Part shown: positions 30,001-48,000 of the stretch, piece by piece
Numbering within the stretch: position 1 is the first letter of the stretch
How the letters are laid out: each line of letters opens with the position of its first letter
Assembly (NCBI RefSeq): GCF_018977255.1
Contig: NW_024705185.1
Location: 1 to 64,000, forward strand
From: Callorhinchus milii
Lineage: Eukaryota
Direction: 5' to 3'
Length of the DNA stretch: 64,000 nucleotides
Position numbers: made by a program

Positions 30001-33000
30001 TGTATATTCACTATACAATTACGATACTATATATTACTTTGTACATTGTTTTAAGCATATACATTTTATACTATTTATTATTATAGACTGTACCATTGAC
30101 CGTCGTGTGAAAGACACTAAGAGGAAGCAACGAAATATGTCAATGGGAGAGTAGTGGGGGGAAACTTGCAGCGGAGCAAAGAATCCATTCCCTGCAGAGT
30201 TACAATGCCAGTGAGTGGAACGCGGTCTGAAAGTCACCGTAAACGTGAACACAATCAGTTAAGATCCGAAATGGTTTATTACATCCTTCCAATGATTGCT
30301 AAGCCAGAATCCATCTTCTCGGTTGAAATTGTCTCTGTGTTTGTATATGTGGATCGCCTCATGAACGAATCTCTCATGGTAGCCAGATGGCTTGCAGAGA
30401 ACCTCTGTCTTGGAGAAGTCAATATCATGTGAGCCCACTGAATTGTAACAGTGATCTTCCACGGCTGAGGTGTTTGTCCTACCGTGTTTCAAGTCTGCTT
30501 TATGTTCACGGATGCGGTCCGAGACATGTCGTTTGGTTTCTCCAATGTAACTGCTACCACAGAGGAAACTTAGTTTGTAGACGCCAGGGTACTGTATGTC
30601 TGGAACCACATCTTTTACAGACGGGACTAGATCACGGATTTTATGTACTGTGTTGAAACATATACAAACACAGAGACAACTTCAACCGAGAAGATGGATT
30701 CTGGCTTAGCAATCATTGGAAGGATGTCTTTGACAATCAGGCATAGCTACTTTTTTGTCACGCACACCGAACTGGTAACAGTCTTTGGAGCGGTTTTGAT
30801 GGTTTTGCCAGATTGGCCCGGAACCACCGGATAATCTTGGAAGCTGGATAATCACGTGCCGGATAATCGATGGTCAAACTATATATTCTGTTATTCTTTA
30901 TTAGGGTTCACCTCTCGGCATCCATTGCACCAGTACACGGTGGCCCTCCCATAGTCGATTCTAACAGGTTGCCATCGACAGATATGAAACCGTGACTAAA
31001 AAATGTTGCATTTGCTCTACAACGCCCTGCGTCCCACAGGACTTCACGATGAAGGAGTTTGAGCGGATGAAGGACACAAACACAGTGCGATCGTATTTGG
31101 TGTCCAAGGAACGACTCGAGGTGCTGTATCAGCTGTTGAAAGAGATGAACGCAGACTTCATGCAGCCCGGGGGCTACCAGAAATACGAGGCCGCAATGCA
31201 GGAGTTGGATGAAGAGTATCGTGCTACAGAGGGACTAGGAGACGAGGTGACTTACACTCTCCATGTGCATATTCTTCCTGATGTTTCCTCCGTTCTGTAG
31301 GGTTTGTTCTTGCTGCTCCTCTTTCTCTAATTGTTCATGTCCTGGGACAGCATCTCTATGTCCACTCCACCGGCCATCATATCCTGTTCTCAACCACTTC
31401 CAACCATATGTATTTCTATTTAACACGTCGTGGGTTTTCGCGACCAATATTATCCATAATAGAGGTTGTTTGGGTTAGATCGTGTACATATCTGAATAAC
31501 CCAACCAGTAATGGATATCCATTGAAATGTATATGAATACATTAACTGCCAACCCCCCTCTGAACTTGACACCTGATTGGCTCACAAGTGATGACATCAC
31601 ACTTATCTGCTCTAATTAAAACCGAGACAGGAGGAGGATTTCTCCACAATTTTGGGTGTCACCTGGCGAGGCTGGTTGTAATTACCGGCGGAACATCACG
31701 ATACTTTAATTGTTAACGTTGTAGTGGTTTTACTCTCCAACACACCAGTTAGTGCTGAGCTAGTAACGAATTGGCACGTTTTGTTTACGTGACAAACCTT
31801 ACTGATTGGCTGTGTCAAGTGGTGGCGGGATCAACGACGCATTTATATTTACGCGATCTAACCAAAAAAAATCTCTTATTTCTATGCCTACTTTTCTGTC
31901 TCCGCCCCGGTGCTTGCATCTTCATCTAGTTCTTTTCCATATGCAAACATCAATACCAGAGAGACAGATGTGGGCAGGCTTTGTGCTGGCTACACCACCC
32001 CTATTGTGTGCCGTGCTGACATCACCAGGTGCTGGCCTTGCTGCAATTGCCTGTGTAGGCTACAATGTATACTATTACAACAAAAAGTGTTTTATTCTAC
32101 CAGGTGTAAGGGACCACTGAGCTATCTGGCTATTTTCAGAAGCGACCTGGCCATCATGCATGATAGCCCAATGAAGTAGCTTATCATCATGTGGCAATTT
32201 GTCGCAGCAAAATACGCGAAAAGCGCGATGTTGATTCTAAATGTGGAGGGGATAACGGAGCACCCTGGAGAAAAATCCACACGACCACGGGCAGAGAGAG
32301 ACAAGCAATCTCTAAATATACAGCAGGCGCCAGAGTCGGGTTGGAACCCATGACCTCCTATACACAAGGCGAGGTATTTAACTTCTCATAGCCACCGTGG
32401 CACACACCGGGGCAAAAACCCTCCCCTAACCTGCGGGTGTCTGCCAGCAACACTGCATTGAAAGCAATGTCATTGAGGGAAGGGCTTATGTCGGTCAGCT
32501 TATTACCCTCACGGTGCGCTCTCATCCACCATAGTGGCTAACGGAGGGCCACTGGGCAGGTTTGTGGAGGCTGCTGAACCCCGCACTTTCCGCTCATTAC
32601 CATGGGGACTAGAGAGACAATGTTCAGAGCAAGCAGGTTACGGGAGCACCGAAAGGACAGGAGTCAATTGACCTCTCCTAGCCACAATCCCATTTGATGG
32701 AGCCAGGGGGAGTAAAACACATCTCCTGCCTATTTCAGGCTATAGCTGTCAGTGAAACAGAGCACATTGCTGATAGCTTTGCACTGCCAGAAGTGGCGCG
32801 AAGACCAAACTTACTAATATTATCACGAATGACCGTGGGTGTCATTCACCGCTCCCCTTATACTCTCGTTTTCCTCCCTCAATGTCGATGCATATGTATC
32901 ATTTTGCATGGCACATTGAGATTCTTTTCTGTTTCTGTCCTTCCAGAAAGACAAAGCCTACAAAGATTTCATGGAAAAAAATAAGGATCGTGCAAAACAA

Positions 33001-45000: not shown

Positions 45001-48000
45001 GCAATTTTTATTATCGGCTCAGCTTTGCAAATCAAGAAGACGAATATGCAGTCTATTTCTGTCGTTGGTGCACTGGTGCCTATGTCTGAGTCTGCGATGA
45101 TAATTCGGGTAATGTTTGACAAAAATCTTAATCTCAAATGCCATGTAAAACAAAAAAACATCTGCCACAATTGTAACGACCACATCCGGGCACTCCGTCA
45201 CGTGCGACCGGTATTGGACAAAGAGACCGCGAGGTCACTCGCTTGTAGTATGGTTACAGCGTTTGGAGCGGTTTTGCCGGATCAGCCCGGGACCGTCGGA
45301 TAATGTTGGAAGCCGGATAATCGATGATCAACTGTATATACATAAGGCACTTTGAGGTGTTGATGGATTAAAGAAACGCCACTTACATGCACACCCTCAA
45401 TCCTTAATGATTACAGTGACACCTCTCGAAGACGAACTCCGGGGTAAGCCGGATATTGGGCAAAAAGATAGCGAGGTTCTCTGGAATATACCACCACCAT
45501 GAGGGAGCGAGTGGTGTCATCCGTTGTCTCCACGTGTGTGCGCGTGCAGATCATCATGAGGATGTTCAACGACAAGCTGAATGACATCCAGAAACACACG
45601 GATGAGAACATAAGGGAGATCCAGAAGACTCACCAGAAGGAGATGGACAGTGTGAAGAATAAATCAAAGTGCGTGATCTGTTGACAGCAGTTCTCCTGCT
45701 GTGTTGGTCTCACCTGATAACGGTTGCTTGTGTTGCGATCGAAACGTCGTGATCTATTAATTTTCTATCGACGTGACTTTACCGAAAGAACCAGAGTCAT
45801 TTAATATAGCATAATACATACAATCACATGAACATCTGAGTATCACTCCCTCGTTCCTCTTGGCGCAAATTGATGACATAGTGGTGGGAGGACATTTTTG
45901 CAAATCTGACAACTGCTGAGAACGATTGATTAAGGGCGCTTTATAAATTAGTATTTTATTGATGATGATGACGATGGTTGTAACTATCAGGGGAAACATC
46001 TGCACCCCATTGTTAAATGTCATGAGATTACTCTCCGGCAACATATTCGAATGTTGTGCTCAAGGGGTAATACATAAATTGGCCACGTTTGTTCACTTGA
46101 CAACATTATGAATTAGCCGTGTTGGTTGGAGGAGGGTCAACTCATGCAATTTGACGCCAAAAATGTTTTATTTGTGAATGAGGGTTACAAGTGTGTCTCC
46201 ATTTGATCACAATATGGTTATCATATTTCTTGACCGGTAAGTCCTGTTTTCTATTGGCATTTAAGAAGATGAAGGAAAAAAGCAATTGTTTAAAAATGCA
46301 TTGCATAAAAAAATTCTCCCCATATTGATTTTAAGATTTTTTTTCTGGCATTCAAGGCCTTGAATGGACATGCTCCTCCCTACATCCATAACCCGCTTCA
46401 TCCATTATATATTCCATCAAGATCATTAAGATCCTCACATTGTACTTTGCTCACTTTCACCCCGGCCTCCATGCTTCACACGTTGTTTGATCTTAAGCTA
46501 TTTCGCCTTTCCATGCACAGCGCTCCTCAGAACGATTTTTTAAGGCTGCTTTATTCATTATAATTATTATTGATTGTTCCGAGTCCCTTGGCTTGTGGAT
46601 TTTTATAGTTTTGTTACGCTCTGGAAAAGGGACCTATGAAGAGGTGACTGCCAAAAACATGATTATGAGCGTGCTGCTTTAACAATTGAGACTTCTGGAA
46701 GATGTATTATGAACAACCGGTGGTGGTCTTCTGCCCACCGCGTGATTAGTATATCGTTACAGAGAGCCCTCATTCTGGAATATGATCAGAAATGCACGGC
46801 TTTAAGATGGGGAGGGATGTCTTGTGGAAGACGACGGTTAATAGCTGATGATGGGTGGTTCGCCATTCTTAGGATGGTTGTCACGCGGTGGAGCAGGTCA
46901 CAGTGTGTGTGTGTACGTATGCATGTGTGTATGTTGAACTTCTTTCGCACCGTACGTAGCCAACCGTGCTAATCGGAGGTAGTTTTGGTGTACTGTATAG
47001 TAATGTAGTATATAATCGTGTGTGTATTTTGCACTTCTTTCACACCGTGCGTAGCCAACAATCAAAACTATCCAGTCTAACTCCTTTTCTGCTCATGAAG
47101 CAACAAACAATTTAACACTAACACACACAGACAGAGATCCCCCGTATAGACTCAACATACTGTTGGGGCAAGTGCTGTTAGCGAGCACCTATAAAGGCTA
47201 GCACGACACGAGGGGGTGGCTGGCCAGCAGCACGGCCGGCCGCCTTTGTCTCCCCAGTGACGATGTTTACACACAGCACCAGGTCCTCATATGAGGCTGA
47301 GTTGAACTATGGGGAGCCCCAGAACGGGTTCAGATAATGTTCACTGGTGTTGGCTTTGGGTCGGAACCGAAGTCGGGTAAACAGGTTCGTGGTGCGGCGC
47401 GTTAATTGCTATACTACCGTTCCCCACTCAACCACACACACACAACCACACGTACACAAAACACAACACAGCCCAACTTTGACACAGGTTACTTGCTCAA
47501 CTCAAACTCCCGTTGATGGCTCCGTCTTCGCGTGTAAGCAGAACTTCGTGTTCGCTGGATGAGTATGTGCGATTGCTTTCCTGTGAATCATTCGAAAATC
47601 GAGCTGTTGACAGTGATGGCTGTCATCCTGATGAGTTACCCACAGTCCACTCAGTCCACCTTAGAGTCGACTCAAACGGCTTTCTCCGCAACTCAGCCTC
47701 ACGACTTCGTTCAGTCCGTGAAGTACCTGGCACGAATTTTCACGATACATTTACAAGATACTTCTACACATCCATTACTGCTCACGTAATATGGTTTTAC
47801 TCACGAGCAGAGATCCTTTCATATTCCCTTCTTTGATTCGTCCAATTTCTACTAAAATTCATTATTTACAAGAATGTATGTACTAAAATAACCATATATA
47901 TGGTGGCAATTTACCTTATGCTACGGTAAAACTAATACTGCCTAAAGTTACTTAATTACATGTACTGCAATATTATTATTTTTAATTAATTCCAAATTAA

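What the first reader, a model, noticed from the sequence alone, without database searches (positions are those of the whole stretch)
31040..45684. GBP gene apparently lacking its GTPase domain but keeping an open helical domain and CaaX box
Seen: four in-frame exons with no stops encode ~180 aa ending CVIC, with an in-frame ATG at 31049. Upstream there is under 4 kb, mostly Penelope debris, before the 5' region of the opposite-strand SLC37A3. I found no P-loop or DTEG exons in the window. Known: GBPs need the N-terminal GTPase and some are prenylated via CaaX. Possibilities (inference): a GTPase-less membrane-anchored GBP regulator or decoy; a GBP whose giant intron hosts SLC37A3 and MUS81; a young partial duplicate; or a misjoin.
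Basis: partly seen in the sequence, partly recalled or inferred. Interest (0 to 1): 0.65.

Follow-up and report, generated by a model that had tools for sequence, protein, structure and literature searches.

The report
Tail end of a lamprey GBP gene
These four exons are the last 182 codons of an ordinary lamprey guanylate-binding protein gene; its GTPase-coding exons lie outside this 64-kb window, so they are probably not missing from the gene.

Summary
Four + strand exons (31040-31246, 32947-33049, 35135-35238, 45550-45684) have canonical splice sites and compatible phases. They encode 182 aa ending KNKSKCVIC. No GBP GTPase exon exists anywhere in the window.

The "GTPase-less GBP" reading is not the best one. 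The exons match, junction for junction and at 179 of 182 residues, residues 466-647 of a 647-aa Lampetra planeri protein model. That model has a full GBP GTPase domain and a GBP_C domain. A Lethenteron reissneri RefSeq model joins the same P-loop exons to the identical last exon. A Petromyzon fragment joins upstream helical exons to exons 1 and 2.

Most likely the window holds only the 3' end of a full-length, prenylatable GBP. Its 5' exons would lie more than 31 kb upstream, beyond the opposite-strand SLC37A3-like and MUS81 genes.

This is not proven:
- The L. planeri model is homology-only.
- The L. reissneri GBP and SLC37A3-like proteins are listed on different contigs.

An orphan partial duplicate or a misjoin therefore stays open. 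The window is lamprey, not human. Interest is low.

The parts
31040..31246 (+). GBP exon E1. It has 69 codons, equal to residues 466-534 of the L. planeri model P0001 (middle-domain helices), and contains the in-frame ATG at 31049.
   Evidence: The sequence is and the splice context. tblastn gives 67 of 69 identical, E = 2.5e-36. Pfam GBP_C gives E = 8.9e-5 at 22.5 bits, below the 24.3 cut-off, on profile positions 107-168 of 297. In the alignment of P0001 to human GBP1 it falls at chain residues about 388-458 of 6k2d_A.
32947..33049 (+). GBP exon E2. It has 34 codons plus the first base of a split Lys codon, equal to P0001 residues 535-568 and part of 569.
   Evidence: The sequence is. tblastn gives 33 of 34 identical inside the exon, with an HSP E = 1.8e-14. 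Pfam alone finds nothing.
35135..35238 (+). GBP exon E3. It has the last two bases of the split codon plus 34 codons, up to P0001 residue 602.
   Evidence: The sequence is. tblastn gives 34 of 34 identical inside the exon, E = 1.4e-15. Pfam alone finds nothing.
45550..45684 (+). GBP terminal exon E4, with 44 codons plus TGA, equal to P0001 residues 604-647.
   Evidence: The sequence is. It is 44 of 44 identical to P0001 and to the L. reissneri model P0005.
45655..45681 (+). Lysine-rich stretch K-N-K-S-K followed by the CaaX box C-V-I-C, a predicted prenylation site.
   Evidence: It is read. The comparison is to the polybasic motif next to the CaaX box in human GBP1 (PMC7240152, passages). No prenylation was tested.
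35919..42640 (-). Ty3/gypsy-type LTR retrotransposon inside GBP intron 3. This is context and explains the 10.3-kb intron.
   Evidence: Pfam finds protease, RVT_1, RNase H and integrase on - strand ORFs. The LTRs at 35919-36455 and 42104-42640 are 537 nt long and 99.26% identical, with 0 gaps.
27840..30681 (-). Penelope-like element fragments directly upstream of E1 (context).
   Evidence: RVT_1 hits at 28535-29206 (E = 3e-10). GIY-YIG hits at 30262-30681 (E = 4.4e-4, below cut-off). A second GIY-YIG-like ORF at 27840-28586 was seen by eye.
10018..24212 (-). SLC37A3-like (sugar phosphate exchanger 3-like) gene. All 504 codons of the L. reissneri protein P0006 map here (context, upstream neighbour on the opposite strand).
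   Evidence: One search gives 100% identity over the exon used as query. In one search the tblastn pieces cover residues 1-504. Two 1-nt deletions break the frame.
4228..4431 (-). ORF holding an N-terminal helix-hairpin-helix exon of MUS81 (context). I infer that the gene runs off the left end of the window.
   Evidence: Pfam HHH_8 gives E = 7e-12. PDB MUS81 N-terminal domains 7bu5, 6vwb and 2kp7 give E about 1e-14.

Best explanation
The four exons are the genuine 3'-terminal exons of a canonical lamprey guanylate-binding protein gene. They encode the last helices of the middle domain, the long C-terminal effector helices, a lysine-rich patch and a CaaX box.

The exons for the GTPase domain and the first half of the helical domain (residues 1-465 of the orthologous model) are not lost. 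They lie outside this 64-kb window, more than 31 kb upstream of E1. Two opposite-strand genes, SLC37A3-like and MUS81, would then sit inside or beside that long intron.

Inferred mechanism, by analogy with human GBP1. The GTPase domain binds GTP and dimerises. This frees the prenylated, lysine-flanked C-terminus encoded here. The C-terminus then anchors the protein on membranes or microbial surfaces.

Shown: the exon structure, and its identity and colinearity with full-length models in sister species. Inferred: that this locus is spliced to upstream GTPase exons, prenylation, and any immune function.
For: 1. 179 of 182 residues, and all three internal exon junctions, coincide with residues 466-647 of L. 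planeri P0001.
2. P0001 is a complete GBP. Pfam gives GBP at 20-356 (E = 1.8e-62) and GBP_C at 365-640 (E = 4.2e-33). Human GBP1 structures match at E about 1e-68, with the P-loop GKYRTGKS and the RD motif aligned.
3. An independent NCBI model in L. reissneri, P0005, carries the same N-terminal exons (151 of 154 aligned residues identical to P0001). It ends in an E4 that is 44 of 44 identical to the window.
4. The Petromyzon fragment P0002 is 83% identical over E1. It continues upstream into about 105 residues of GBP_C.
5. Divergence from L. planeri is alike for the window's exons (3 of 182) and for the 5' exons of P0005 (3 of 154). This is what one orthologous gene would show.
6. No short representative with E1 at its N-terminus turned up. 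The 3 hits among 1.84 billion representatives place E1 at residues 107-175, 568-635 and 463-525.
7. No ISRE core occurs in the window (0 matches, 1.45 expected). No GAS-like site lies within 24-31 kb. This is very weak evidence, and the motifs are recalled from mammals.
Against: 1. Nothing beyond the window could be read, so the upstream exons were never seen for this locus.
2. At least 31 kb and two opposite-strand genes separate E1 from any upstream exon. That is unusual geometry.
3. P0001 comes from an annotation built from protein alignments (miniprot, GALBA, EvidenceModeler). The paper's text has 0 occurrences of 'RNA-seq' (PMC12767195, passages). Its 465|466 junction is therefore a prediction, and a long-range chimera is possible.
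4. P0005 skips E1-E3. Its 14-residue penultimate exon is not in the 45.5 kb upstream of E4 in the window. That locus may therefore not be equivalent.
5. The database lists P0005 on a 1,527,537-bp contig and the L. reissneri SLC37A3-like protein P0006 on a 13,487,809-bp contig. In the window, the two genes are 7 kb apart. This hints at a second copy of one of them.
6. No L. reissneri or RefSeq Petromyzon protein containing an E1 orthologue was found (4 hits among 23 candidates).
Confidence: 0.6

Rival explanations
1. Orphan partial duplicate or gene relic. A segmental duplication or rearrangement copied or stranded only the last four GBP exons next to SLC37A3-like. The full-length parent, with its own copy of these exons, lies elsewhere. 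The fragment is recent, still open by chance, and has no product of its own.
For: 1. No upstream GBP exon lies within 31 kb, and the flank is transposon debris that ends 360 nt before E1.
2. In L. reissneri, the GBP model with the identical E4 and the SLC37A3-like protein are listed on contigs of different length.
3. P0005 does not use E1-E3.
4. GBP families evolve by gain and loss (abstracts of PMC10859415 and PMC12486975 in the listing, not read further).
Against: 1. All seven splice sites and 182 codons are intact.
2. Divergence from L. planeri is no higher than for the 5' exons of the same gene.
3. No second copy was observed.
4. Contig lengths are given only for cluster representatives. 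They may not describe the window's species.
Confidence: 0.22
2. Assembly misjoin or local rearrangement. The gene is compact and complete in the animal. The assembly joined its 3' part to the MUS81/SLC37A3-like block inside the repeat-rich stretch between about 24.2 and 31.0 kb.
For: 1. Penelope-like fragments, including an inverted duplicate, fill 27.8-30.7 kb.
2. The SLC37A3-like coding sequence carries two 1-nt deletions in short homopolymers (GGG to GG, CCC to CC) but only 2 amino-acid substitutions in 504 codons. This pattern looks like consensus error and suggests a lower-accuracy assembly.
Against: 1. The window has no N run or gap.
2. No sequence discontinuity was detectable.
3. The two LTRs of the intronic element show 0 indels over 537 nt, so the error rate is not extreme.
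Confidence: 0.1
3. A real GTPase-less, membrane-anchored mini-GBP. A transcript starts in the transposon-derived flank and is translated from the ATG at 31049. It yields a 179-aa prenylated helical protein that modulates or titrates full-length GBPs through the C-terminal helices.
For: 1. The frame is open and the CaaX box and lysine patch are intact.
2. The ATG at 31049 has A at -3.
3. [quoted passage not shown]
Against: 1. The Met is an internal residue of the full-length models, and it is Leu in the paralogue P0004.
2. Two out-of-frame ATGs lie within 70 nt upstream.
3. No GBP_C-only representative starting with E1 was found.
4. The fragment would begin in the middle of the helical middle domain, at profile position 107 of 297.
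5. Membrane binding of GBP1 needs the GTP-bound GTPase (PMC7025589, passages).
6. No ISRE or GAS consensus lies nearby.
Confidence: 0.07

Closest known systems
Lampetra planeri predicted protein P0001 (NCBI 'unnamed protein product', 647 aa)
   Same: Residues 466-647 equal the window's four exons at 179 of 182 positions, with identical exon junctions and the same KNKSKCVIC end.
   Different: It has 465 further N-terminal residues (GBP GTPase domain and the first part of GBP_C), none of which is in the window. It differs at three residues (E/D, S/L, Y/N). It is a homology-only model.
Lethenteron reissneri LOC133361688 (P0005, 242 aa, RefSeq 'uncharacterized protein')
   Same: Its last 44 residues are identical to E4. 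Its N-terminus is the same P-loop exon set as in P0001.
   Different: It lacks everything between P0001 residues 155 and 602, including E1-E3, which are intact in the window. It carries extra segments, one of 14 residues before E4, that are absent from the window.
Human GBP1 (PDB 1dg3/1f5n, 6k1z, 8cqb and others)
   Same: The orthologous full-length model aligns at E about 1e-68 over the GTPase and helical domains. [quoted passage not shown]
   Different: E1 alone does not reach any GBP chain by phmmer at E<=1. The CaaX box is CVIC. The human CTIS is recalled, not from a call. The basic patch is K-N-K-S-K, not an arginine run. The lamprey model has an insertion of about 92 residues after the P-loop helix, and DMEG where GBP1 has DTEG.
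Petromyzon marinus guanylate-binding protein 1-like (P0004, 660 aa)
   Same: It has the same domain architecture and is a paralogue 60% identical over E1.
   Different: It ends in ...FFQQK without a CaaX box. Its E3 and E4 equivalents are only 46% and 39% identical.

Membership tests
Guanylate-binding proteins (GBP, dynamin superfamily) | N-terminal large GTPase domain (Pfam PF02263) with P-loop, DxEG and RD motifs | tested here: inconclusive
   It is absent from all 64 kb of the window on both strands. It is present in the orthologous models that contain these exons: P0001 at E = 1.8e-62, and a P-loop part in P0005. Whether this locus is joined to such exons cannot be read from the window.
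Guanylate-binding proteins (GBP, dynamin superfamily) | C-terminal helical domain (Pfam PF02841, GBP_C) | tested here: met
   E1 alone matches GBP_C at E = 8.9e-5, but at 22.5 bits it falls below the 24.3-bit cut-off. E2, E3 and E4 alone give no GBP_C hit. At 98% identity, the four exons form positions 466-640 of the GBP_C match of P0001 (365-640, E = 4.2e-33). Only the last two thirds of the domain is encoded here.
Prenylated GBP subgroup (GBP1/2/5-like) | C-terminal CaaX box, with or without an adjacent polybasic motif | tested here: met
   C-V-I-C followed directly by TGA, and preceded by K-N-K-S-K. This is met at the sequence level only. Which prenyl group is added was not tested. That a final Cys favours farnesylation is recalled.
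Guanylate-binding proteins (GBP, dynamin superfamily) | Expression as one spliced mRNA, interferon-inducible | not testable with these tools
   No transcript data were available. The ISRE and GAS consensus scans found nothing near E1, which says little.

The most novel reading that the evidence does not exclude
The four exons are an orphan but maintained gene. It would be a GTPase-less, farnesylated 'effector-helix only' GBP expressed from the transposon-derived flank next to SLC37A3-like. It would act as a membrane-resident partner or decoy for full-length lamprey GBPs, which would make it a natural dominant-negative in the oldest vertebrate GBP system.
Probability: 0.07. Interest if true: 0.6.

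Novelty: new member of a known kind. Interest (0 to 1): 0.2.

Why it matters
The finding matters little as it stands. It shows that a jawless vertebrate of the Lampetra/Lethenteron group carries a GBP with a CaaX box and a lysine-rich patch. This fits with membrane-anchored GBPs being old. I found no paper on lamprey GBPs: 8 papers held both search terms, 7 were listed, and none had either term in its title or abstract.

The practical lesson is about annotation. A 64-kb window can cut a gene, and the public models of this gene disagree (647 aa, 242 aa, and a 206-aa fragment). If the 5' exons really lie beyond two opposite-strand genes, the locus is a good test case for long-intron and nested-gene annotation in lampreys. 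If the exons proved to be an expressed orphan, that would be a new kind of GBP regulator.

Tried and rejected
1. Six-frame Pfam scan by long references. One search answered with an error because the translation contained stop codons. I then sent stop-free ORFs instead. That covers ORFs of >=50 aa upstream. Downstream of 45685 it covers only the 112 longest of 174 ORFs of >=50 aa (all >=60 aa). Between 31040 and 45700 it covers 38 ORFs of >=90 aa. Shorter exons of other genes could have been missed.
2. E1 against PDB sequences. There were only 4 weak unrelated hits (E 0.02-0.18) and no GBP.
3. The listing of cluster members for P0001 and P0002. The database was switched off, so the other 5 members of the P0001 cluster were not seen.
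4. Contig lengths as a test of synteny. The result was suggestive but not conclusive, because lengths are given for representatives only.
5. Reading the two frameshifts in SLC37A3-like as pseudogenisation. I rejected this as the main reading, because 2 indels with only 2 amino-acid changes in 504 codons fits consensus error better. This is my inference.
6. Comparing the two gypsy copies to gauge indel error. They are only 85% identical, so the comparison is uninformative.
7. Poly(A) signal. There is no AATAAA or ATTAAA in 45685-48500, so the 3' end is undefined.
8. Literature. Nothing on GBP, MUS81 or SLC37A3 appears in the L. reissneri near-T2T preprint (0 occurrences each). The lamprey mentions in PMC12597722 concern natterin.
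9. The genome-contig collection (bacteria and archaea) and the phage, plasmid and E. coli collections were not used, as they are irrelevant to a lamprey locus. No eukaryotic genome collection was available.
10. P0075 and P0076 (unnamed representatives) were not fetched.
11. No structure or complex was predicted. The joined four-exon protein was never assembled or submitted.
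Full report
**What is there**

The window has no N. It is lamprey sequence, not human. Its coding pieces are 97-100% identical to proteins of Lampetra planeri and Lethenteron reissneri.

On the + strand, four open pieces with canonical splice sites form a consistent reading frame:
- E1 31040-31246 (69 codons).
- E2 32947-33049 (34 codons plus one base).
- E3 35135-35238 (two bases plus 34 codons).
- E4 45550-45681, followed by TGA.

By arithmetic this is 182 residues ending K-N-K-S-K-C-V-I-C. 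I handled the spliced model exon by exon throughout. The joined sequence was never assembled, searched or folded, so no result here rests on it.

**Are the exons real and are they GBP?**

- E1 alone matches Pfam GBP_C at E = 8.9e-5. The score of 22.5 bits is just under the 24.3-bit cut-off. The match covers profile positions 107-168 of 297, the middle of the helical domain.
- E2, E3 and E4 alone give no GBP hit in Pfam.
- E1 alone gives no GBP chain in the PDB.
- A database search with E1, restricted to longer proteins, returned 4 hits among 23 candidates:
  - a 647-aa L. planeri protein, P0001 (97% identical);
  - a 206-aa Petromyzon fragment, P0002 (83%);
  - two Petromyzon entries of a paralogue, P0003 and P0004 (60%).
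- tblastn of P0001 on the window hits exactly the four exons (E = 2.5e-36, 1.8e-14, 1.4e-15, 1.2e-22). Identities inside the exons are 67/69, 33/34, 34/34 and 44/44, and the split Lys codon fits, giving 179 of 182.
- The exon ends I read from the DNA coincide with the places where the protein alignment jumps.

The exons are therefore real GBP exons, far beyond chance.

**What the full protein looks like**

P0001 has a GBP GTPase domain (residues 20-356, E = 1.8e-62) and a GBP_C domain (residues 365-640, E = 4.2e-33). It matches human GBP1 structures at E about 1e-68. In that alignment:
- The P-loop (GKYRTGKS) and the RD motif are conserved.
- The G3 motif reads DMEG where GBP1 has DTEG.
- About 92 extra residues sit between the P-loop helix and the next conserved block.
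- E1 corresponds to chain residues about 388-458 of 6k2d_A.

From my recollection of the GBP1 structure, the window would encode the last middle-domain helices and the long alpha12/alpha13 effector helices. The helix boundaries are recalled, not from a call.

**Is the GTPase part in the window?**

No. Four tests agree:
- tblastn with P0001 and the paralogue P0004 at E<=10 gave only chance-level pieces for residues 1-465.
- No exact 6-mer of those residues occurs in any frame.
- 0 of 291 ORFs of >=50 aa in 1-31040 hit GBP or GBP_C in Pfam.
- An HMM built from P0001+P0004 hit 4 of 2624 ORFs of >=15 aa, the four exons. Nothing better than E = 5.2 matched profile positions 1-484.

**Surroundings**

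- Directly upstream lie Penelope-like fragments on the - strand, at 27840-30681.
- Further left, also on the - strand, is a complete SLC37A3-like gene. All 504 residues of the L. reissneri protein P0006 map from 24212 down to 10018. Its first coding exon is therefore 6.8 kb from E1, not under 4 kb.
- An N-terminal MUS81 exon lies at 4228-4431 on the - strand. I infer that MUS81 runs off the left edge.
- Intron 3 of the GBP is 10.3 kb long because it holds a 6.7-kb Ty3/gypsy element (35919-42640, - strand). Its LTRs are 99.26% identical.
- Downstream of the stop I found only a second, 85%-identical gypsy copy (53616-60363, + strand) and Tc1/Sleeping-Beauty-like transposase pieces.
- There is no AATAAA or ATTAAA within 2.8 kb of the stop.

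**Interpretation**

Three independent gene models connect these exons to upstream GBP sequence:
- P0001 (full length).
- P0005, an NCBI model from L. reissneri. Its first 184 residues are the same P-loop exons as in P0001 (151 of 154 aligned residues identical). Its last 44 residues are identical to E4.
- The Petromyzon fragment P0002, which runs from about 105 residues of upstream GBP_C into E1 and E2.

The window's exons differ from L. planeri by 3 of 182 residues. The 5' exons of P0005 differ from it by 3 of 154. This is what one orthologous gene would show.

A search of 1.84 billion representatives with E1 found only 3 proteins. None has E1 at its start.

My best reading, at about 0.6, is that the window shows the 3' end of a normal, full-length, prenylatable GBP. 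Its 5' exons would lie more than 31 kb upstream, with SLC37A3-like and MUS81 in between.

**Why this is not settled**

- The L. planeri annotation was made from protein alignments (miniprot, GALBA, EvidenceModeler, using P. marinus, Swiss-Prot and OrthoDB proteins). The paper's text has 0 occurrences of 'RNA-seq' (PMC12767195, passages). The junction between residues 465 and 466 is therefore a prediction.
- P0005 skips E1-E3 although they are intact in the window. Its 14-residue penultimate exon is not found in the 45.5 kb upstream of E4.
- The database lists P0005 on a contig of 1,527,537 bp and P0006 on one of 13,487,809 bp. In the window the two genes are 7 kb apart.

Several explanations remain: one of the two is duplicated, the arrangement differs between species, or these fields do not describe the window's species. 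An orphan partial duplicate (about 0.22) and a misjoin in the repeat-rich 24-31 kb stretch (about 0.10) stay open.

The SLC37A3-like coding sequence carries two 1-nt deletions in short homopolymers, with only two amino-acid substitutions in 504 codons. I read this as consensus error in a lower-accuracy assembly rather than decay. That is an inference.

**The GTPase-less decoy**

I rate this at about 0.07.
- The ATG at 31049 has A at -3. However, it is an internal Met of the full-length models, and it is Leu in the paralogue.
- Two out-of-frame ATGs lie just upstream.
- The product would start in the middle of the helical middle domain.
- In human GBP1, membrane binding needs the GTP-bound GTPase. 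The C-terminal domain alone does have an anti-proliferative activity (PMC7025589, passages).
- No ISRE core occurs in the window, and no GAS-like site lies near E1. This is weak evidence, and the motifs are recalled from mammals.

**How it most likely works**

This is inferred by analogy. In GBP1 a CaaX box with an adjacent polybasic motif gives lipid anchoring and bacterial targeting (PMC7240152, passages). The tail KNKSKCVIC encoded by E4 has the same layout. That a final Cys favours farnesylation is recalled. Prenylation, interferon induction and any antimicrobial role are untested.

**Novelty and verdict**

This is a new, uncharacterised member of a known family, already present as automatic models in sister species. 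I found no paper on lamprey GBPs: 8 papers held both terms, 7 were listed, and none had them in title or abstract. Interest is low, at 0.2. The only unusual point is the geometry, at least 31 kb and two opposite-strand genes between these exons and any GTPase exon. One whole-scaffold search and one look at spliced reads would resolve it.

Noticed in passing
window 19339 and 14842 (- strand exons of SLC37A3-like): There are two 1-nt deletions in short homopolymers relative to the L. reissneri protein: GGG read as GG, and CCC read as CC. Each shifts the frame inside an exon. Only 2 amino-acid substitutions occur in 504 codons (both in exon 16179-15961). This looks like assembly consensus error, but a young pseudogene copy is not excluded.
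   Followed up: partly
window 21697-23014: A tandem array of a 52-nt unit, with 25.5 copies and 95% matches. It is G+C-rich with a strong C over G skew, and it lies in intron 2 of SLC37A3-like.
   Followed up: no
window 35919-42640 (-) and 53616-60363 (+): Two copies of one Ty3/gypsy family in opposite orientation, 85% identical to each other. The intronic copy has LTRs 99.26% identical (4 mismatches and 0 gaps in 537 nt), so it is a young insertion. In both copies pol is split over several frames.
   Followed up: partly
window 29077-29514 (-) and 29624-29872 (+): The same Penelope-like peptide (…GNATVIMDKDSYNNKILDLLNDGSYSKIKNDPTKNLTTK…) is encoded on both strands about 100 nt apart. This is an inverted duplication of the element's 5' part.
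   Followed up: no
window 60308-60904 (+): Tc1/Sleeping-Beauty-type transposase DNA-binding pieces (HTH_SB E = 1.2e-25, HTH_Tnp_Tc3_2 E = 5.9e-11), split over two frames.
   Followed up: no
P0001 residues about 60-151 and P0004 residues about 60-170 (not in the window): Lamprey GBP models carry a low-complexity insertion of about 92 residues or more between the P-loop helix and the next conserved GTPase block, where human GBP1 has 2 residues. In P0004 the insertion contains a direct repeat. P0001 has DMEG where GBP1 has DTEG.
   Followed up: no
P0005 (L. reissneri LOC133361688), P0002 (Petromyzon): Public models of this gene disagree: 647 aa, 242 aa (P-loop exons joined to the last exon) and a 206-aa fragment. 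No RefSeq Petromyzon or L. reissneri protein containing an E1 orthologue was returned.
   Followed up: partly
window 45685-48500: There is no AATAAA or ATTAAA on the + strand in the 2.8 kb after the GBP stop codon, so the 3' UTR end is undefined.
   Followed up: no
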